From the NCBI GenBank assembly GCA_030149205.1, contig JASBSB010000007.1, positions 540,001 through 572,000 of the forward strand: a stretch of 32,000 nucleotides of DNA. Reading direction: 5' to 3'. The notes below the pieces were generated by a model that did no database searches, was not told where the DNA came from, and saw only the letters and a list, made by a program, of their open reading frames with translations. The DNA comes from Candidatus Heimdallarchaeota archaeon. Its GTDB lineage: Archaea > Asgardarchaeota > Heimdallarchaeia > Heimdallarchaeales > Kariarchaeaceae. This document shows positions 16,578 through 26,599 of this stretch, piece by piece (position 1 is the first letter of the stretch; every line of letters starts with the position of its first letter). A program made the position numbers and the translations under genes.

Positions 16578-17333
16578 ATGGGTTCTGAAGAAGTAATTTT
16601 GAAAGCAGAAACGTTGAAAATCTTTGAACATAAAAATGTTCCAAGAGAAAACATCCTCCCTTTGATTAAAAGTACAAGAGAGAGAGCCCTTAAGTCTCAT
16701 TATTACAGATCAATTGACACCTATGATTTTATCTTCCCAAGAATCTCTCTTAACCCCTTCCTCAAAAAGGTGATAAAGAAGAAGCCAATTTTAGACGTTG
16801 GATGTTCATTTGGAGTCGACCTCAGGTACCTAGAGACGCAGGGAGTCAATCCAACAAATCTCTATGGTGTTGAGAAGAACTCAGACTTTCTTCAACTAGG
16901 GTTTGATCTTTTCGGAGATTATTCCAATGGGATCACCTTCTACTGTGGTGACATACTTCATGATACACATTTTAAATCGGTTCAACCTGGAAGAAAGGAG
17001 TTAATTCTTTCCAAAACTGAGCTGGGATGTGTCCATTCAGGCTCACTTCTCCATCTACTCACAAGAGATGAAATCAAGCAGTTTTTTGCCAAGGCATACC
17101 AAAGTTTGTCCTCAGGTGGTTTCGTAATTGGAAGAACAGCTAGCTTTGAATCAACAATTCAAAACCCAAGCTCACAAATGAGAACTGTGTTAAGCCAATC
17201 TGACTTTGAGAGTCTTCTACAATCAAGCGGTTTTGTAGAAATTGAGAGCAATTTATCAATGTCTGGTGCTCTCCCCAAGAAAGGTGATGATCTTATCTTG
17301 AAATCCTTACATTTTATTGCAATGAAAGAATAA
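16578..17333 (+). CDS. Class I SAM methyltransferase resembling the fungal AusD/Trt5/AdrK family
   Basis: RERALKSHYYRSI...F...ISLNP, ILDVGCSFGVDLRYLETQG...NLYGVE...FLQLGFDLFGD, FYCGDIL, VHSGSLLHLL and VIGR. Start placed at ATG 16578; the longer 16470 frame adds an unlikely low-quality N-terminus. Confidence 0.75.
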   Translation: MGSEEVILKAETLKIFEHKNVPRENILPLIKSTRERALKSHYYRSIDTYDFIFPRISLNPFLKKVIKKKPILDVGCSFGVDLRYLETQGVNPTNLYGVEKNSDFLQLGFDLFGDYSNGITFYCGDILHDTHFKSVQPGRKELILSKTELGCVHSGSLLHLLTRDEIKQFFAKAYQSLSSGGFVIGRTASFESTIQNPSSQMRTVLSQSDFESLLQSSGFVEIESNLSMSGALPKKGDDLILKSLHFIAMKE

Positions 17334-17422: not shown

Positions 17423-18775
17423 ATGAGTTCAAAAGAGAAGAATAACTACATCCATGTTTCGAGAGCCAAAATTAAATTTACCTCATCCATATCCGGGATA
17501 ATAGAGGGTATAAACGAGTTTCCGAAGATGTATCATTCATATAAAGGAGAGCAATATCTAGCTATTGGTTCAACAGTTTCAATACAAGATCGAACTCATA
17601 ATTTTAAGCAACTCTCAAATGAAATTTTTTCATATACCTTTCCAGCTGATTTAAACACACCAGTGTGGTTTGGTGGATTATCCTTTTATCCAAAGCAAAA
17701 CGACGAAGAACATACATGGAGGGGTTTTTCAGCTCAACATTTCTTTATTCCAAAGGTCTTACTTAGAATTTCTACCACAAAATCAGAACTAATTGCATTC
17801 TCAAAAGAGTCCAAGGAGAAAGCTAAGGCAGTATTACAAACCTTTCAAAAAAAGATGATGGCTGTTCATAAAAATCAATCTGAGCCAACATTGGTTTCTG
17901 AAATCTCCGAGAGAACTGAAACAGACTTAATTAGTCTTGAACAATGGAAAAAACAAGTAAAGTTTACACTTGAGTCAATAGAGAAGAAAAAAATATCCAA
18001 AATTGTTCTGGTAAGAGGTAAAAGAATTAACATATCAAATTATGAATTTTCAATCTCTGAAACCCTGCACTCACTAAACAAGAAATTTCCAGAGTGCATT
18101 ATTTATGCCTTTCAGGTTGCCAAAAACTCAATTTTCTTTGGAGCAACTCCTGAGATACTCTTTGAAACGAGCTCAGGGTCACTTCAAACCATGGCACTAG
18201 CGGGTTCAATTAACAGAGGAAGCTCAGATCTTACTGATCAAATTCTCACCAAACAGATGTTTGCTTCTATCAAACTTTCAGAGGAACACAACATAGTAGT
18301 TAATTACCTCAAAAAAAATCTTAGTAAGCTATGTGATGAGATAGTAGTTTCTGAGAAGCCAGATGCACTAAAGCTCAACAACATACAACATCTCAGGACC
18401 AGACTCTCAGGTGAACTAAAATCTCAGAAATCAGTTTTTGACATAATTAAGGAGTTTCATCCTACTCCTGCAGTTGGGGGGATGCCTCCCAAAAAGGCTA
18501 TAACTACCCTCGGTATGCTTGAAACTTTCGACAGAGGTTGGTATAGCGGAACAATGGGGATAATCTCTCCAAACAATGATGCCTTGTTTGGTGTAAATAT
18601 TCGTGGTGCATTATCCTTGAATAATGGGGTTTGGATGTATGCTGGTGCTGGAATTGTAAAAAATTCTCATGCAGAGGATGAGTGGAAAGAGGTGGAACTA
18701 AAATTTTTAGCTGTTTATAACTCACTATATTATTATAAAAAGAATGAAGGAGAGCAGAATGAAAACACCTCTTAA
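17423..18775 (+). CDS. menF: Isochorismate synthase (menaquinone-specific type)
   Basis: MST-fold motifs KIVLVR, FFGATPE, TMALAGS, EEHNIVV, IQHLRT, FHPTPAVGGMP, DRGWYSG, FGVNIRGA and YAGAGIVKNSHAEDEWKE. Overlaps menD. Confidence 0.92.
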   Translation: MSSKEKNNYIHVSRAKIKFTSSISGIIEGINEFPKMYHSYKGEQYLAIGSTVSIQDRTHNFKQLSNEIFSYTFPADLNTPVWFGGLSFYPKQNDEEHTWRGFSAQHFFIPKVLLRISTTKSELIAFSKESKEKAKAVLQTFQKKMMAVHKNQSEPTLVSEISERTETDLISLEQWKKQVKFTLESIEKKKISKIVLVRGKRINISNYEFSISETLHSLNKKFPECIIYAFQVAKNSIFFGATPEILFETSSGSLQTMALAGSINRGSSDLTDQILTKQMFASIKLSEEHNIVVNYLKKNLSKLCDEIVVSEKPDALKLNNIQHLRTRLSGELKSQKSVFDIIKEFHPTPAVGGMPPKKAITTLGMLETFDRGWYSGTMGIISPNNDALFGVNIRGALSLNNGVWMYAGAGIVKNSHAEDEWKEVELKFLAVYNSLYYYKKNEGEQNENTS

Positions 18776-20513: not shown

Positions 20514-21005
20514 TTGATAGTCAGAGATCTACCTGTTGGAAGTATTAATATTGAATCTAAGGAAGTTAAGGTCATAAACCAAGTAAACTTTACCTGTCAA
20601 AGTAGCACAGAATGCTGCAGAAAGCATGATATTCCCGTTACACCAAAAGAGGTAGAAAGGATCACAGATAATGGGTTTGAACCAGATCAGTTTCTTATAA
20701 ATTTCACTCCGATCTTAATTAACAGTAAGACTGGGAAGAGTAAGATCAAAGCATACGTTCTCAAGAAGAAACCATTTTCTCATGATTGTGTGTTTCTAAA
20801 CGAGAAGAACCTCTGCTCAATACATGAGTTTAAACCTTTTGCATGCAAAATTTATCCGTTTACCTATGAAATAAAGGATACAGAAAATATTGAGGTTCGA
20901 GTACATCAAGATAGTGTGTGTAGCTCTGTCAGTGTTGGATTAAATGCTCCCTCGGATTCTATCAATATTATCAGAGATGTCTATTCCAAAGTTAAAATGC
21001 TCTGA
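20514..21005 (+). CDS. YkgJ-family (CxxCxxCC-like) cysteine-cluster, putative Zn or Fe-S protein
   Basis: FTCQSSTECCRKH...CVFLNEKNLCSIHEFKPFACKIYPF...C. TTG start. Confidence 0.85.
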   Translation: MIVRDLPVGSINIESKEVKVINQVNFTCQSSTECCRKHDIPVTPKEVERITDNGFEPDQFLINFTPILINSKTGKSKIKAYVLKKKPFSHDCVFLNEKNLCSIHEFKPFACKIYPFTYEIKDTENIEVRVHQDSVCSSVSVGLNAPSDSINIIRDVYSKVKML

Positions 21006-22196: not shown

Positions 22197-22895
22197 GTGA
22201 GCTTAGATAAAACCCCTCAAAAAATATCAAAACTTTTTGATGGAGTTGCCTATCGATATGATCTTTTAAATGATGTGATGACAGGCTTTAGTCATCGTAT
22301 CACTAGAAAGCTAGGGTTAAACTTAGTAGGGGTGAAACCAAATAGTAGGATTTTAGATGTTGCTACAGGAACAGGGGATTTCCCAATCCTGCTAACTAAA
22401 TCTCATAATGTCAAACAAGTTATTGGTATAGATATATCGGAAAATATGCTTCATTTTGCAAAGCTGCGTACTAAGAATCAGTCGAAAATAGTTTATGAAT
22501 ATGGAAATGCTTTAGAACTTAATTTTGAGGCAAATCAATTTGACTTAATAACGATAGGATACGGGATTAGAAATGTCCCCGATACCTTGAAAGTTCTTAC
22601 AGAGATGAATAGAGTTACGAAATCAGGTGGAAAACTGTTAATAGTAGAAGCTACACCCCCACAATCAAAATATCTTAATTTTCTCACACATTTTTATTTT
22701 AAATCGATTGTTCCACTGGTGGCATCTCTTTTAGCACATAATGGGGAAGCTTATAGATACTTTGCAGAAAGTGTTTATCAATTTCCCATTGCACCCAAAT
22801 TTTGTAAAATTATAAATTCTGCAGGGTGGGTAAATATCAAATATAAGCCTTTATACTTTGGAACAGTGACTATTTTTCTAGCAGAGAAACCATAA
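22197..22895 (+). CDS. menG: Demethylmenaquinone methyltransferase (UbiE/MenG)
   Basis: LFDGVAYRYDLLNDVMT, ILDVATGTGD, GIDISENML, GNALEL, FDLITIGYGIRNV, EMNRVTKSGG and AYRYFAESV. GTG start. Confidence 0.93.
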   Translation: MSLDKTPQKISKLFDGVAYRYDLLNDVMTGFSHRITRKLGLNLVGVKPNSRILDVATGTGDFPILLTKSHNVKQVIGIDISENMLHFAKLRTKNQSKIVYEYGNALELNFEANQFDLITIGYGIRNVPDTLKVLTEMNRVTKSGGKLLIVEATPPQSKYLNFLTHFYFKSIVPLVASLLAHNGEAYRYFAESVYQFPIAPKFCKIINSAGWVNIKYKPLYFGTVTIFLAEKP

Positions 22896-22954: not shown

Positions 22955-24367
22955 ATGTTGCTTCGCTACCAGTATCGAAGATTATTCAAGGTTGTCTCGA
23001 TCTTCTTCCTAGTTACATTAATCTTGAGTTCACTCATTTTCTTTATTCCGCTTCTTTTCCCACCACCCACATACAATGTTTCCAATTACTTAATCAAGGA
23101 AACTCAAGATGGATTTGTTAGTGATGAGGTCTCGGGAAACAACACCATATATGTTTTAACAAAACCTGATTTGAATAACCTAACGATAAATAAGATTAAC
23201 GCCATCAACAAAAATGGGAAGCTTTTATGGTCATATCCTATCGCAGATCCATTTTCTAGCACACAACTACTTGCTGGATCAGACAACCAAGTGTTAGCTT
23301 TGGTTTATAAAAACCTCCTCCCCACAATCGAGCTTTATGGACAATTTGGGCAGGTATGGAACCTAAACATCAGTTCGCTTGTTCCTGATTCGCTGGTCTC
23401 TCTGGTTGTTGCTAATGCCATCTCAAGAGGGTTCGCTGTGAGTTTTGTAAGTGTAAGCAGAACGACAGATGGAAATATTGTGGAAGCCACATTAAACTAC
23501 TTTGAAATTGGAACTGCACCTAAAATTTTGAATACCCTGTCAATTAAAGCCCAAGGTGTCACAAAACTTGTAAGACCCACAGAAAAAGGTGACTCCGTTA
23601 AATTTGGGTATATTAGTAAAGGTGTATCAGAGCTACTCTACCAGTTCAATTCGACAACAAAGCGGGGGAAATTTCTACAGACTGTAAATTTTTCCAACTT
23701 TGCCTTTGGGAAGACGTACATAGGAAAAATAACAACAAAAGAAGGTGAAATCCGTGTATTTGGGACATTTAATCTGACTCAGATAGAATTTTGGAAAAAT
23801 GATCAGATGTTCGCAAGTATCGATAACTCAGTTGCGAAGATCTATCAATCATTTGCTCAAAAGGGCGATTCAATACAACATGTTGAATTTCTTCCTGGTA
23901 GGGTTCTTTTCACTGCTTACAGTGAGTTTAATCATTTCGCCCAATCATCATTTGGTGTAGTATTATTAAATCAAAATGGGTTGACAAAGATAACCAAGTT
24001 AAATCTCCCTGAAGCGGACCCAAACTTTCTGATCAGCTCTCGAGCTGTTTATTATATTAACTCAGAGGTTGTTATATTACAAGAACTGTTCAATCCTTTA
24101 AATAAGACCTTAAAATATCGAACAGTAATATCTACCCCTTCAACTACTAATCCAGTTGACTTTATTGATACCTTATCACTTTTGGAAAAATTCTCTTTAC
24201 CAATTTTTATTGGTATCCTATTTTCCGGGGTTACTGTCATAAGAACCAGAGGCCCAATTATTGATGAACATCTCTATCCTTCTGAGAATAAAAATTACAA
24301 AGAGTACGTTGAAAAACTAAACAAAATTGAGAAAATAGCTGATGAATCTGAAAATAATGATATTTGA
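22955..24367 (+). CDS. Membrane-anchored hypothetical protein (N- and C-terminal TM, beta-rich ectodomain)
   Basis: TM VVSIFFLVTLILSSLIFFIPLLF, then a beta-rich region including NGKLLWSYP (propeller-like), a second TM FSLPIFIGILFSGVTVI, and a ~40-aa charged tail. Confidence 0.75.
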   Translation: MLLRYQYRRLFKVVSIFFLVTLILSSLIFFIPLLFPPPTYNVSNYLIKETQDGFVSDEVSGNNTIYVLTKPDLNNLTINKINAINKNGKLLWSYPIADPFSSTQLLAGSDNQVLALVYKNLLPTIELYGQFGQVWNLNISSLVPDSLVSLVVANAISRGFAVSFVSVSRTTDGNIVEATLNYFEIGTAPKILNTLSIKAQGVTKLVRPTEKGDSVKFGYISKGVSELLYQFNSTTKRGKFLQTVNFSNFAFGKTYIGKITTKEGEIRVFGTFNLTQIEFWKNDQMFASIDNSVAKIYQSFAQKGDSIQHVEFLPGRVLFTAYSEFNHFAQSSFGVVLLNQNGLTKITKLNLPEADPNFLISSRAVYYINSEVVILQELFNPLNKTLKYRTVISTPSTTNPVDFIDTLSLLEKFSLPIFIGILFSGVTVIRTRGPIIDEHLYPSENKNYKEYVEKLNKIEKIADESENNDI

Positions 24368-24414: not shown

Positions 24415-24774
24415 ATGACATTAATAAAATCAATCCATCATGTGGTCATATATGTAACAAACATGAATGAAGCTATCAATTTTTACACAGAGATTTTAGA
24501 GATGAAATTAGGATACAAAAGTGATATGTGGACCGAAGTTTCATTTCTGACCCCAGGGTCTTATATTGGATTGCATTATACGAAGGAAGGAAATTCTAAA
24601 TCTATTGGAACTGAAGTCTCTTTTGAAGTAACAGACATCCATTCAGTGAGGGAAAGGTTACTCCAGAACAAAGTAAATTTTACGAGTGATGTGCTTGAAG
24701 CAGCACCTGGTAAATTAATTGCTAACTTCTTGGATCCATTTGGAAATCCATTATCTATCTATGAAACTATCTAA
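24415..24774 (+). CDS. VOC/glyoxalase-family protein
   Basis: IHHVVIYVTNMNEAINFYTEILEM, VSFEVTDI and FLDPFGNPLSIYE. Confidence 0.9.
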   Translation: MTLIKSIHHVVIYVTNMNEAINFYTEILEMKLGYKSDMWTEVSFLTPGSYIGLHYTKEGNSKSIGTEVSFEVTDIHSVRERLLQNKVNFTSDVLEAAPGKLIANFLDPFGNPLSIYETI

Positions 24775-26599
24775 CAAAAAATTTGAATTTAGAGCTTTTG
24801 CGTAAAATAATTAGAGCTAACACCATGGGCATAAATACATAAATTCCAGAATTGTTTTTAGATGTAGTTGGAATCCCTGTATTAGTGGCACTAGTCTTAG
24901 TGGCTGTTGATATATACTTCTTAACAAATGAAAGATCCTTAGTTGCAAAGGTCAAGTAAATTGCTTTGAAATAGAGTGCTGAGACATTGAATCTTCTTGC
25001 TTCAAATTCAGAATTTGCTAGTCCAAGTAATGAAAATGCCTGTTGAAAACTTGAATTATCCACAAATGTAGGTGAGATTTGATCTATCAGATTTTTATAA
25101 TAAAGGCTATAGAGTCTCCCAAGTTTGAAAAAATCATACTGGGAAAATCTGTTGCCGTTGGGAAAATACCCCATAATGCTGTCAACAAAATCAGAACCCC
25201 ACATATTATAAATGTTAAAAGGGTGGGGTAAACCCAAAGAATGACCAATCTCATGAGCCAGGACTTGTGACATCCCTCTGCTTTTGTTGATACCTTCATA
25301 AACTCGAGTTGGTTGGATCCCCTGTAATTGCCATCCCATTCCGCCTAATCCTGCAAACCTGAGGTCACCCCAACTAAATACAACCTTATCTAAGAGGAAA
25401 GTCAGACTTGGAAGGTTTGTGGTGTTTTTTTCATGCTGAATGAACAAGGGGAGAATGTTTGTTTCTAAGTAGGTTAAAAACCCCTTACTTACATCAAGCA
25501 GATATATATCTTCAGCAGGGATATAAGTCATAAAACTCTTCATCTCATTAACAAGGGTTCTGTAGTCAGAAAGATTGAACCATTGGGTTGATACATTAAA
25601 ATTCCACCAAGAGAAACTTTCAGATAGCAATTTCTGTATTCTTTTATCATGAACTACCCATTGAATGTCTGATTGGTTTGGATACAGTCTTGTCCAATTG
25701 TTAAAAATTATATTGTTCACTTGAATTGTATCTGAAGTGATCATCTGTCCCATCACAGGTTCACTAAATAGATTTTCCATATAAGTATTAATCACTCCAT
25801 TTATCCAGTTGTTAAACTCTGGGGAAGTAAAATTTGACCTGTTCCACACCCCCAACGGTCTGGTCAGTATGTTGTCATAATATCCATTTGATCCCCAAGC
25901 TGTGTTTATAAAATTCCCATACCATGTAACCGATGAGAGGTCCACAAACTGTAGGGGGTACTGTTGTATTCCACCCCATCCATTCGTTTGTCTCCCGAGA
26001 TTGAGACCTCCAGTTCCAGAAAAGAAAGAAGGGGTGAGTTTTTGAGTATCAATATCTTTTGGATACACATTAAACCAATGAGGGCCTGCTTTTGTTACAT
26101 CTGTCAGATTAAAGAGGAATAAGTTATAATCTGCTGTAGATATCTTTGTCTGAAACTTGTTATATAACCATTTTACAGTGTCAACAGCATTAAAGGACGT
26201 TCCTACCCTGGGAACAAAACTGTCATTTTTCAGACCTCCATTGAATGCAGTGGAGTTAAATGAGTAACCATTAGGTGTGCTAGTAGACTCATTTGCTACA
26301 AGTGCTTTAACTAAATCTTGATGATCTTTATCTGTAAAAGGTAAAATTTTTACTTGAAACTTATAATTTAATGTGAAACCCAAACCAGCTCTAGATCTAT
26401 CATATACTCGATTGTTATATGTCAGTAACCTGTTTTCAATGTTAATAGACGAGTCAAATTTGGAATCGACAAAAACATTCACCGTAATTGGGACGATTTT
26501 GTCAGCGATCGATGTTTGGTGATACATGGTGTCCCCCCCTACCCCCATTGTACTCAAAGTTAGTGAAAAAATGATAATTATGGTTATTTGAGTCCTCAT
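24767..26599 (-). CDS. Surface-anchored metzincin-type zinc metalloprotease
   Basis: Signal peptide, HEIGHSLGLPH (HExxHxxGxxH), Met-turn SIMGY, S/T-rich linker, C-terminal TM and basic tail RKSSKFK. Confidence 0.88.
   Translation of the reverse strand: MRTQITIIIIFSLTLSTMGVGGDTMYHQTSIADKIVPITVNVFVDSKFDSSINIENRLLTYNNRVYDRSRAGLGFTLNYKFQVKILPFTDKDHQDLVKALVANESTSTPNGYSFNSTAFNGGLKNDSFVPRVGTSFNAVDTVKWLYNKFQTKISTADYNLFLFNLTDVTKAGPHWFNVYPKDIDTQKLTPSFFSGTGGLNLGRQTNGWGGIQQYPLQFVDLSSVTWYGNFINTAWGSNGYYDNILTRPLGVWNRSNFTSPEFNNWINGVINTYMENLFSEPVMGQMITSDTIQVNNIIFNNWTRLYPNQSDIQWVVHDKRIQKLLSESFSWWNFNVSTQWFNLSDYRTLVNEMKSFMTYIPAEDIYLLDVSKGFLTYLETNILPLFIQHEKNTTNLPSLTFLLDKVVFSWGDLRFAGLGGMGWQLQGIQPTRVYEGINKSRGMSQVLAHEIGHSLGLPHPFNIYNMWGSDFVDSIMGYFPNGNRFSQYDFFKLGRLYSLYYKNLIDQISPTFVDNSSFQQAFSLLGLANSEFEARRFNVSALYFKAIYLTFATKDLSFVKKYISTATKTSATNTGIPTTSKNNSGIYVFMPMVLALIILRKSSKFKFFVR

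What the first reader, a model, noticed from the sequence alone, without database searches (positions are those of the whole stretch)
16578..17333. Fungal meroterpenoid-type (AusD/Trt5/AdrK-like) methyltransferase in an archaeon
Seen: ordered motifs R-x2-A-x5-Y-x2-I, LDVGCSFGVDLRYL, NLYGVE, FLQLGFDLFGD, HSGSLLHLL and IGR. Known, from memory: the fungal family reads R..A...YPCI, LDLGCCFGQDIRKL..DG, NLYGSD, F..LGYELFRD, H.SSFFHLF and VGRQ; characterised members methyl-esterify carboxyl groups of prenylated aromatic intermediates. I know this family mainly from eukaryotes. Inference: either a new eukaryotic-signature enzyme or a eukaryote-archaea transfer. The two family Cys positions read Ser here.
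Basis: partly seen in the sequence, partly recalled or inferred. Interest (0 to 1): 0.72.

Follow-up and report, generated by a model that had tools for sequence, protein, structure and literature searches.

The report
Eukaryote-type methyltransferase in Asgard quinone cluster
An Asgard archaeon carries a small-molecule methyltransferase whose labelled relatives outside its own archaeal family are all eukaryotic (fungi, amoebae, algae and others), paired with a second methyltransferase beside vitamin-K2 (menaquinone) genes, so it probably tailors a quinone-pathway compound, though no activity is shown.

Summary
Observation confirmed. Window 16578-17333 (+) encodes a 251-aa class I SAM methyltransferase with every listed motif. 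The two family cysteines are serines (S45, S77).

The genome is archaeal, an Asgard of family Kariarchaeaceae (inferred).

Family membership:
- A profile built only from 27 named eukaryotic members hits this ORF at E 3e-38; the next methyltransferase in the genome scores 4e-4.
- A profile of their N-terminal 75 residues alone finds only this ORF (E 2e-6).
- The AF2 model (pLDDT 94) superposes full-length on fungal PF27593 'NvfJ_N' clusters (TM 0.85-0.86), against at most 0.61 for PDB chains.

It therefore belongs to the NvfJ/AusD/Trt5-type family. That family's named members span fungi, Capsaspora, Cavenderia, Cyanophora and Rhizaria, not fungi alone.

Among 400 Asgard genomes, full-length homologues occur only in Kariarchaeaceae (11/12). 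They form one clade (98/93) outside the fungal clade. The backbone is unresolved, so the direction and age of any transfer cannot be told.

New here: the gene is half of a conserved pair with a prokaryote-type methyltransferase (14678-15442). The two are fused in seven relatives. In this genome and one metagenomic relative the pair sits in the classical menaquinone cluster (menF-menD-MT1-MT2-menA), near a UbiD-family decarboxylase.

The function, methylation of an aromatic-acid or naphthoquinone intermediate, is inferred and not shown.

The parts
16578..17333 (+). MT2 = the finding (P0001, 251 aa): class I SAM methyltransferase of the NvfJ/AusD/Trt5-type family, with C45S and C77S
14678..15442 (+). 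MT1 (254 aa): prokaryote-type small-molecule class I methyltransferase. It is the partner of MT2 and is homologous to the N-terminal half of the ~500-aa fused proteins of relatives
15435..16079 (-). 214-aa ORF on the opposite strand between MT1 and MT2. It has hydrophobic ends and many N-x-S/T sites and matches no family. It separates the two halves in this genome only and is probably not part of the unit
   Evidence: It is absent between MT1 and MT2 in L002, G054 and the fused forms
12362..13612 (+). UbiD-family (hydroxy)aryl-acid decarboxylase. It lies about 0.5 kb from MT2, convergent, in two same-genus genomes
   Evidence: TIGR00148, 351.7 bits, cut-off 244.85
17423..18775 (+). menF, isochorismate synthase. 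It starts 90 nt after MT2 on the same strand
   Evidence: TIGR00543, 298.8 bits
18744..20450 (+). menD, SEPHCHC synthase. It overlaps menF by 32 nt
   Evidence: (TIGR00173, 380.8 bits)
20514..21005 (+). CxxCxxCC (YkgJ-like) Cys-cluster protein, 63 nt after menD. It is kept near menD in same-genus genomes
22197..22895 (+). Canonical UbiE/MenG demethylmenaquinone C-methyltransferase. This shows that MT1 and MT2 are additional to, not substitutes for, the standard methylation step
   Evidence: TIGR01934, 217.9 bits

Best explanation
Window 16578-17333 encodes a real, probably active SAM-dependent small-molecule methyltransferase (MT2). It belongs to the family whose characterised fungal members (Trt5, NvfJ and relatives) methyl-esterify the carboxyl group of prenylated or cyclised aromatic acids.

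In Kariarchaeaceae (Asgard, Heimdallarchaeia) MT2 is one half of a two-methyltransferase unit. Its partner MT1 (14678-15442) is a prokaryote-type methyltransferase. The two are one ~500-aa fused protein in most genera and split in this genus.

In this genome MT2 is co-directional with menF-menD. In a related metagenomic contig both genes lie inside a menF-menD-MT1-MT2-menA operon. A UbiD-family aryl-acid decarboxylase is a neighbour.

Most likely mechanism (inferred): MT2 binds SAM through the retained motif I (LDVGCSFG) and E99. Together with MT1 it methylates an oxygen function, a carboxyl or a ring hydroxyl, of a chorismate-derived aromatic acid or (prenyl)naphthoate or naphthoquinol made by the men pathway. 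This would give a modified naphthoquinone or a side product alongside ordinary menaquinone.

Shown: the gene, its family membership, the pairing and fusion, the phyletic restriction and the gene neighbourhoods. Inferred: activity, substrate, and any physical contact between MT1 and MT2.
For: Family membership:
- The eukaryote-only full-length HMM scores E 3.3e-38 (130.7 bits); the next genome ORF scores 3.7e-4.
- The eukaryote-only N-terminal HMM hits only this ORF among 9,192 ORFs (E 1.8e-6).
- Language-model features and fold both point to fungal PF27593 clusters (0.98; TM 0.85-0.86 over residues 1-251).
- Profile A1 retrieves named Ascomycota proteins carrying PF27593.

Likely activity: all nearly invariant family residues are retained except C45, and the AF2 model is confident (pLDDT 94).

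Pairing with MT1:
- The N- and C-terminal halves of the ~500-aa proteins match MT1 (37-39%) and MT2 (32-35%) respectively.
- MT1 and MT2 are found in the same 11 of 12 family genomes.
- They are fused in 7 genomes, adjacent in G054 and L002, and 1.1 kb apart here.

Quinone link:
- L002 has menF-menD-MT1-MT2-UbiA with gaps of 57, 6 and 54 nt, and its UbiA is 53% identical to this genome's MenA.
- Here the order is MT2-menF-menD.
- In G053 and G055 MT2 lies within 10 kb of menD and next to UbiD.
- In 400 Asgard genomes both menD and full-length MT2 occur only in this family.
- The genome also has menB, menA and menE.

Chemistry of characterised members: Trt5 gives the DMOA-derived methyl ester and NvfJ methyl-esterifies a carboxyl (PMC8235479; PMC6030086).
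Against: - No biochemical data exist for any archaeal member.
- Linkage to men genes is seen only in this genus and in L002. In the seven fused-form genomes the gene is on a different contig from menD, and two longer fused-form loci (L015, L016) show no quinone genes nearby.
- The co-distribution of menD and MT2 is a single clade, so it counts as one event.
- A canonical UbiE/MenG is present, so no known menaquinone step needs these enzymes.
- MenA normally removes the DHNA carboxyl, so a methyl ester has no place in the textbook route.
- The two family cysteines are lost, and the archaeal clade is not inside the fungal clade that carries the characterised chemistry.
- P0001 has no recorded PF27593 hit.
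Confidence: 0.45

Rival explanations
1. The MT1-MT2 unit is a two-domain N-methyltransferase for an osmolyte or head-group pathway. It would resemble the two-domain plant/nematode phosphoethanolamine N-methyltransferases, or the glycine-sarcosine plus sarcosine-dimethylglycine methyltransferase pair. Its position beside men genes in one genus would be coincidental.
For: - The fused ~500-aa two-methyltransferase architecture resembles the two-domain plant PMTs. These are the best PDB sequence hits of the family profile (5wp4, E 3e-12, both domains matched) and top the fold list.
- The family's invariant H159 aligns with the His of the PMT '...ILHL' motif.
- MT1's solved relatives include glycine N-methyltransferase and archaeal GSMT. 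Its best NCBIfam hit is glycine/sarcosine N-methyltransferase.
- Fused forms are not next to men genes.
Against: - All these similarities are at generic class I level: 37-49 bits; TM 0.56-0.61 against 0.85 for the NvfJ-type clusters; the NCBIfam GSMT hit is 41 bits against a cut-off of 350.
- In the HMM alignment, the PMT segment that I recall as carrying phosphate-binding Tyr/Arg residues falls in an 8-residue insertion absent from the archaeal profile (the residue roles are from memory).
- P0001 hits no NCBIfam model, including the SDMT model.
- The L002 operon places both genes between menD and menA with 6-57 nt gaps.
Confidence: 0.2
2. Evolutionary reading A: the gene entered the Kariarchaeaceae ancestor by one ancient horizontal transfer from a eukaryote, possibly an early fungus, and was then fused to a resident archaeal methyltransferase.
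For: - Among 400 Asgard genomes in 33 families, full-length homologues occur in one family only.
- The family is broad in eukaryotes and its GCC-motif form is essentially absent from 185,579 prokaryote genomes.
- In the ML tree the archaeal clade sits among eukaryotic lineages. An AU test does not reject it as sister of the Ascomycota-type clade (p 0.48).
- MT1, by contrast, is of prokaryotic type.
Against: - The backbone is unresolved, with supports of 4-57.
- An AU test equally fails to reject the archaeal clade branching outside all eukaryote-type sequences (p 0.48, delta lnL 0.12).
- The archaeal clade is deep (about 25-35% identity within it) and its GC content is native.
- A weaker archaeal sister family exists (f14/f15 genomes, E 1e-26 to 1e-30; Methanobacteriota cluster, TM 0.74), which would also fit an archaeal origin.
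Confidence: 0.45
3. Evolutionary reading B: the family is an Asgard-eukaryote shared ('eukaryotic signature'-type) family. Either it was inherited vertically and lost from other sampled Asgard lineages, or it was donated from a Kariarchaeaceae-like archaeon to early eukaryotes.
For: - The distribution is Asgard plus eukaryotes, with no confirmed bacterial member among labelled hits.
- Eukaryotic members span Opisthokonta, Amoebozoa, Archaeplastida and Rhizaria, suggesting great age.
- The sister position is not rejected.
- A second prokaryote-like contig with an Arf-family GTPase carries a PF27593 protein (P0013).
Against: - Restriction to one family out of 33 sampled needs many losses.
- Most metagenomic hits are unlabelled, so bacterial members cannot be excluded.
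- The origin of the P0013 contig is unverified.
Confidence: 0.3
4. The resemblance is a chance or convergent match of a generic prokaryotic methyltransferase, or the ORF is eukaryotic contamination of the assembly.
For: Pfam gives only generic Methyltransf_25/11 hits (E 1.7e-6). There is no NCBIfam hit and no recorded PF27593 hit for P0001.
Against: - There is a 110-bit gap between P0001 and every other methyltransferase of the genome against a eukaryote-only profile.
- The N-terminal, non-Rossmann region matches on its own.
- The gene lies in a 633-kb contig between archaeal-genome genes.
- It has orthologues in 10 other genomes of the family and native GC content.
Confidence: 0.02

Closest known systems
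Fungal meroterpenoid methyltransferases Trt5 / AusD / AdrK / NvfJ (Pfam PF27593 NvfJ_N plus class I core; I recall the PANTHER 'ausD' family from memory)
   Same: - Same family by a full-length profile built from named eukaryotic members, mostly fungal proteins that carry PF27593 (E 3e-38; the characterised enzymes themselves were not in the profile).
- Same N-terminal helical region (R-x2-A-x5-Y-x-[CS]-I...F-x-P-R).
- Same post-motif-I signature (G-x-D-x-R) and same invariant His in 'GSxxHL'.
- Same predicted fold over all 251 residues (TM 0.85-0.86).
- Like the fungal enzymes, it is encoded near a UbiA-type prenyltransferase pathway that starts from an o-hydroxy aromatic acid.
   Different: - It is archaeal and lies in a separate clade from the fungal sequences.
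- Both family cysteines are replaced (S45, S77).
- It has no recorded PF27593 hit.
- It is partnered or fused with a second methyltransferase, which I did not see in any eukaryotic member.
- Its context is primary respiratory-quinone genes, not a polyketide cluster.
- The substrate is unknown, and the characterised enzymes themselves were not available to align.
UbiE/MenG demethylmenaquinone C-methyltransferase (PF01209, TIGR01934)
   Same: Class I SAM methyltransferase encoded in a menaquinone gene neighbourhood.
   Different: P0001 gives no PF01209 or TIGR01934 hit. The true UbiE/MenG lies at 22197-22895 (194 and 218 bits).
Two-domain phosphoethanolamine N-methyltransferases (plant PMT1/2, PDB 5wp4/5wp5) and Plasmodium PMT
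   Same: The fused relatives have the same tandem two-methyltransferase layout of about 490-510 aa. These are the best, though weak, PDB sequence and fold hits, and the His in the 'xxLHL' motif aligns.
   Different: Similarity is only generic (37-49 bits, TM up to 0.61). The N-terminal 55 residues match nothing in the PDB, and the phosphobase-binding insertion is absent from the alignment.
Futalosine-route late steps (MqnP UbiA-type prenyltransferase, MqnL/MqnM UbiD/UbiX decarboxylase, MqnG methyltransferase); recalled from memory
   Same: A UbiD-family decarboxylase, a UbiA-type prenyltransferase and methyltransferases are grouped around naphthoate chemistry.
   Different: Here the early genes are the classical menF/menD/menE/menB. 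The UbiD homologue scores only 127.6 bits on the menaquinone-decarboxylase model, whose cut-off is 495.9.

Membership tests
NvfJ/AusD/Trt5-type methyltransferases (PF27593-bearing family) | Class I SAM-dependent Rossmann core with motif I and an acidic residue after beta-2 | tested here: met
   PF13649 E 1.7e-6 over residues 71-181. LDVGCSFG and E99 are present. The AF2 model has alternating beta/alpha elements and pLDDT 94.
NvfJ/AusD/Trt5-type methyltransferases (PF27593-bearing family) | Family-specific N-terminal helical region preceding motif I | tested here: met
   An HMM of the 75 residues before motif I, built from 21 named eukaryotic members, finds only this ORF in the six-frame ORF set of the genome (E 1.8e-6, 26.7 bits). 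The fold match covers residues 1-251.
NvfJ/AusD/Trt5-type methyltransferases (PF27593-bearing family) | Hit to Pfam model PF27593 (NvfJ_N) itself | tested here: inconclusive
   The local Pfam copy lacks this model. The precomputed list for P0001 shows PF13649 only. Family members outside the Kariarchaeaceae clade, P0007 and P0013, carry PF27593, and P0162 carries it faintly.
NvfJ/AusD/Trt5-type methyltransferases (PF27593-bearing family) | Whole-length profile similarity that separates it from other methyltransferases | tested here: met
   The eukaryote-only HMM scores 130.7 bits (E 3.3e-38) over model positions 25-243. The next ORF in the genome scores 19 bits.
NvfJ/AusD/Trt5-type methyltransferases (PF27593-bearing family) | Signature residues: Y-x-C-I, LDxGCCxGxDxR, invariant His in GSxxHL, and G-R after beta-5 | tested here: inconclusive
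   Ten of the 11 nearly invariant columns are kept. C45 is Ser, and the second Cys of GCC is Ser. These two positions also vary in the other Kariarchaeaceae sequences.
NvfJ/AusD/Trt5-type methyltransferases (PF27593-bearing family) | Placement inside the fungal clade that holds the meroterpenoid enzymes | tested here: not met
   The 21 Kariarchaeaceae rows form their own clade (98/93), outside the supported clade that contains all named Ascomycota sequences. The characterised enzymes were not in the data set. This bears on 'fungal meroterpenoid-type', not on family membership.
NvfJ/AusD/Trt5-type methyltransferases (PF27593-bearing family) | Carboxyl O-methylation of a prenylated or cyclised aromatic acid | not testable with these tools
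   The chemistry is known only for the fungal enzymes (PMC6030086; PMC8235479).
UbiE/MenG (PF01209, TIGR01934) | Score above the family cut-off | tested here: not met
   P0001 gets no hit. The gene at 22197-22895 scores 194.1 and 217.9 bits.
Phosphoethanolamine N-methyltransferase | Specific sequence similarity and the phosphobase-binding segment | tested here: not met
   Only 37-49 bits to PMT chains, no better than to unrelated methyltransferases. The PMT-specific 8-residue segment aligns to a gap.
Glycine-sarcosine / sarcosine-dimethylglycine N-methyltransferases | NCBIfam equivalog score | tested here: not met
   P0001 hits no NCBIfam model. MT1 scores 41.3 bits on NF051855, whose cut-off is 350.

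The most novel reading that the evidence does not exclude
The NvfJ/AusD-type methyltransferases are an Asgard-eukaryote shared family. Their archaeal form is a fused two-methyltransferase enzyme that tailors a respiratory naphthoquinone or its aromatic-acid precursor next to a UbiA-type prenyltransferase. The fungal meroterpenoid trio (aromatic acid, UbiA prenyltransferase, carboxyl methyltransferase) would then descend from a quinone-pathway module. Kariarchaeaceae would make a so far undescribed methylated naphthoquinone or naphthoate.
Probability: 0.15. Interest if true: 0.78.

Novelty: new variant of a known kind. Interest (0 to 1): 0.55.

Why it matters
If the reading holds, it adds three things.

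1. A concrete candidate for the small set of metabolic enzyme families shared only by Heimdallarchaeia and eukaryotes, or a clear case of ancient inter-domain transfer. It has a testable phylogeny.
2. A hint that the oxygen- or nitrate-respiring Kariarchaeaceae, for which menaquinone use has so far only been predicted from genomes (bioRxiv 10.1101/2024.07.04.601786), decorate their quinone or divert a pathway acid with two extra methyltransferases.
3. A possible evolutionary source for the carboxyl methyltransferases that gate terpene cyclisation in fungal meroterpenoid pathways.

The fused two-methyltransferase protein is also a compact target for expression and assay.

Tried and rejected
- A word-indexed homologue search with P0001 alone found only the protein itself.
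With P0001 alone it found nothing.
- PDB searches by sequence and by fold gave only generic class I methyltransferases. No structure of this family is solved.
- tblastn against 72,556 plasmids gave no match.
- Complex prediction for MT1 with MT2 scored 0.00. The tool's verdict was 'no answer', so this is neither support nor evidence against binding.
- Sequencing runs: no RNA holder is listed. The stretch is held by a sediment metagenome (the probable source) and partly by a hydrothermal-vent metagenome.
- An Atlas search with the Arf-like protein of contig L030, meant to identify the host of P0013, gave no usable hit.
- Contexts of three stand-alone MT1 homologues (L035-L037) showed neither MT2 nor men genes.
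- AU tests could not decide the position of the archaeal clade: sister to everything else, p 0.48; sister to the Ascomycota-type clade, p 0.48.
- The PMT-like and GSMT/SDMT-like functions were considered and ranked lower, as set out under the rival explanations.
- The idea that MT2 replaces MenG was rejected because a canonical UbiE/MenG is present.
Full report
**1. What is at the coordinates**

The + strand ORF 16470-17333 is open. Homologues, and the gene as called in the public protein collection (251 aa, on a 633,630-bp contig), begin at the ATG at 16578. I call this protein P0001, or MT2.

Pfam sees only the generic class I SAM methyltransferase core (Methyltransf_25, E 1.7e-6, residues 71-181). 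NCBIfam sees nothing. GC content around the gene (0.335) lies within the window's range of 0.329-0.394.

**2. The host**

The genome (3.3 Mb, 12 contigs, 93.5% complete) has an SSU rRNA that scores 1198 bits on the archaeal model, the best model of its clan.

In the anonymous genome set its family is 'f1'. Two public proteins tie f1 to named assemblies:
- P0154 is 100% identical to the protein of genome G045, on a contig of identical length (39,853 bp) in GCA_024280435.1.
- P0156, from GCA_015522385.1, is 88% identical over 486 residues to the protein of f1 genome G052. A 2026 paper calls GCA_015522385.1 a Kariarchaeaceae species (PMC13700489).

I therefore infer that f1 is Kariarchaeaceae (Heimdallarchaeia, Asgard). 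Earlier notes of this scan say the same.

**3. Is it really the 'AusD-type' family?**

Four independent lines say yes.

(a) An exhaustive HMMER scan of 1.84 billion representatives gave 438 hits at E of 1e-3 or better. About 16 close hits at 26-35% identity come first. They include a dozen proteins of about 500 aa with two methyltransferase domains, and all of them fall in the Kariarchaeaceae clade of section 5. After them comes a long list carrying the motif LD[IL]GCC[FM]G[TQ]D[LI]R.

(b) A profile of 50 of these hits, searched against the named collection, returned mostly Ascomycota proteins annotated with Pfam PF27593 'NvfJ_N'.

(c) Protein-language-model features place P0001 nearest to fungal PF27593 clusters (score 0.98). 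Its AF2 model (pLDDT 94, pTM 0.91) superposes over residues 1-251 on those clusters at TM 0.85-0.86. That compares with 0.74 for an archaeal 'type 12' methyltransferase cluster and at most 0.61 for any solved structure.

(d) I made my own controls.
- An HMM built only from 27 named eukaryotic members scores the P0001 ORF at 130.7 bits (E 3.3e-38). The next best ORF of the whole genome gets 19 bits.
- An HMM of only the 75 residues that precede motif I in 21 named eukaryotic members finds exactly one ORF among the genome's 9,192 six-frame ORFs, this one (E 1.8e-6).

The similarity is therefore not just the Rossmann core.

Caveats:
- The local Pfam copy lacks PF27593.
- The precomputed annotation of P0001 lists only PF13649.
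- I had no sequences of the characterised enzymes themselves.

**4. The family is eukaryotic, not just fungal, and I found no bacterial member**

Look-ups of hits spread over the tree gave these sources:
- Capsaspora owczarzaki, where the domain is fused to a threonine-synthase-annotated protein
- Cavenderia fasciculata
- Cyanophora paradoxa
- Lapot gusevi
- the foraminifer Nonionella stella
- the mucoromycete Chlamydoabsidia padenii

One further hit lies on a contig with spliceosomal and RhoGAP-type genes.

A scan of one genome from each of 185,579 prokaryote species for GCC[MFL]GTD[LVI]R found 17 stretches and one confirmed relative. That relative is on a 5-kb contig of a Saccharimonadales MAG. 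The match there is split between two reading frames about 135 nt apart while the query residues run on. That looks like an intron, and so like a mis-binned eukaryotic contig.

Plasmids gave nothing.

Limits: most metagenomic hits carry no label, and members without the exact motif would escape the motif scan. 'No bacterial member' therefore means 'none found'.

**5. Distribution and tree within archaea**

I searched 400 genomes of the phylum (33 families) with a profile of the 12 closest sequences. Full-length matches (model positions 2-250, E below 1e-50) occur only in the window's own family, in 10 of 11 other genomes plus this one. A second tier (E 1e-26 to 1e-30) in two other families covers only positions 51-231. 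The rest is generic core similarity.

In a careful ML tree (77 rows, LG+C20+F+G4 by PMSF):
- The 21 Kariarchaeaceae-type rows are one clade (ultrafast bootstrap 98, SH-aLRT 93).
- That clade has two subclades that follow genera (98/95 and 100/98).
- The named Ascomycota sequences all lie in a separate supported clade.
- The backbone has supports of 4-57.

AU tests reject neither the archaeal clade branching outside all eukaryote-type sequences (delta lnL 0.12, p 0.48) nor the archaeal clade as sister of the Ascomycota-type clade (delta lnL 1.3, p 0.48).

What is solid: there was a single archaeal acquisition or retention at or before the family ancestor, and no recent transfer from a modern fungus. 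What is open: the direction and the age.

**6. A partner gene and a fusion**

The ~500-aa relatives have two methyltransferase domains. Their N-terminal half matches the window ORF 14678-15442 (MT1) at 37-39%. Their C-terminal half matches P0001 at 32-35%.

MT1 and MT2 are found in the same 11 of 12 family genomes. Both are missing from one 1.4-Mb, 80%-complete genome. Their arrangement varies:
- one open frame of 493-584 codons (stop to stop) in seven genomes
- adjacent genes in G054 and in the metagenomic contig L002
- 1.1 kb apart in this window, with an unrelated 214-aa ORF on the other strand between them
- on different contigs in G053 and G055

MT1 is the better conserved half (47% against 41% mean column identity). 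By language-model features it belongs with bacterial and archaeal clusters. By fold it belongs with small-molecule methyltransferases such as CcbJ, CypM, PsmD and GSMT (TM 0.7-0.77).

The unit therefore joins a prokaryote-type and a eukaryote-type methyltransferase. Whether the split halves touch each other is unknown.

**7. Gene neighbourhood**

In the window the order on the + strand is:
- UbiD-family aryl-acid decarboxylase (12362-13612; TIGR00148, 351.7 bits)
- a TPR protein
- MT1
- the reverse-strand ORF
- MT2
- menF, starting 90 nt after MT2
- menD, overlapping menF by 32 nt
- a CxxCxxCC protein
- nfo
- canonical ubiE/menG

Elsewhere the genome has menB, menA and menE above their curated cut-offs.

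The best outside homologue, P0002 (35% identity), lies in menF-menD-MT1-MT2-UbiA with gaps of 57, 6 and 54 nt. That UbiA is 53% identical to this genome's MenA.

In same-genus genomes G053 and G055, MT2 lies about 0.5 kb from the UbiD gene, convergent with it, and about 10 kb from menD.

Across the 400 Asgard genomes, menD is found only in this family, in 10 of 11 other genomes. This is the same distribution as MT2, but it is one clade and so counts as one observation.

Against the link: in the seven genomes with fused forms, menD is on another contig. Two longer fused-form loci show no quinone genes nearby.

**8. Mechanism**

Characterised fungal members methylate a carboxyl group.
- Trt5 yields epoxyfarnesyl-DMOA methyl ester.
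- NvfJ methyl-esterifies a later intermediate. The authors suggest the ester protects a beta-keto acid from decarboxylation (PMC8235479; PMC6030086).

Those pathways start from an o-hydroxy aromatic acid that a UbiA-type enzyme prenylates. The men pathway likewise delivers an o-hydroxy aromatic acid (DHNA) to a UbiA-type enzyme (MenA). The UbiD neighbour also acts on aromatic carboxyl groups (established family knowledge).

P0001 keeps the SAM-binding residues and all nearly invariant family residues except C45.

My best reading, at about 45%, is that MT1 and MT2 methylate an oxygen function of a men-pathway aromatic acid or naphthoquinol. A carboxyl is the first guess. This step would be additional to the MenG step.

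The main rival, at about 20%, is an unrelated N-methylation pathway of PMT or GSMT/SDMT style. The tandem architecture and weak PDB hits suggest it, but the supporting similarities are only generic.

**9. Novelty**

I found no paper describing this archaeal clade, the fusion, or its men context. The searches covered Kariarchaeaceae with menaquinone, and Asgard with menaquinone biosynthesis. A 2026 structural survey of Asgard-eukaryote homologues does not mention it. Menaquinone use by Heimdallarchaeia has been predicted from genomes.

The enzyme class and the family are known. The archaeal clade, the two-methyltransferase fusion and the quinone-cluster setting are new. I rate it a new variant of a known kind, with interest 0.55.

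Noticed in passing
window 12362-13612 (+): UbiD-family decarboxylase (TIGR00148, 351.7 bits). Its nearest specific model is VdcC hydroxyarylic-acid decarboxylase, not UbiD or the futalosine-route decarboxylase. It is 76-77% identical in same-genus genomes, far more conserved than its neighbours, and there it sits next to MT2. A UbiX partner was not looked for.
   Followed up: partly
window 15435-16079 (-): A 214-aa ORF with hydrophobic N- and C-termini and many N-x-S/T sequons, matching no family. It lies between the two methyltransferase halves in this genome only and overlaps the MT1 stop by 8 nt.
   Followed up: no
L031:3178-3919 (contig JAZQPT010000011.1 of a Saccharimonadales MAG): The only 'prokaryotic' genome hit to the GCC-type family motif is split over two frames about 135 nt apart, like an intron-bearing gene. 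The 5-kb contig is probably eukaryotic DNA mis-binned into the MAG.
   Followed up: partly
P0048 (Capsaspora owczarzaki XP_004345195.1, 741 aa), residues 464-741: In Capsaspora the family domain is the C-terminal part of a protein annotated as threonine synthase. This is an unexplained fusion.
   Followed up: no
L030:7001-7834 (Logan contig, 23 kb): P0013, a PF27593-positive member with motif GACMGTDLR, lies on a gene-dense contig with HAMP, MFS and a 327-aa Arf-family GTPase gene. It may be a second Asgard lineage carrying the family. The host was not identified.
   Followed up: partly
G000:C4:979594-983227: A 544-codon open frame with a weak MenA/UbiA match (E 3e-10) lies just upstream of menE. 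Together with the two extra methyltransferases and UbiD, it suggests a non-standard quinone.
   Followed up: no
window 22955-24367 (+), 24767-26599 (-), 11053-12300 (+): Three long ORFs (470, 610 and 415 aa) flanking the quinone genes have no Pfam or NCBIfam match. The 610-aa one has a 35%-identical homologue near the fused methyltransferase of G045 (L015:4199-5767).
   Followed up: no
genome G048 (same family, 1.4 Mb, 80% complete): G048 has menD but neither MT1 nor MT2. It is the only family member where the pair and the men pathway are uncoupled, but the genome is small and incomplete.
   Followed up: no
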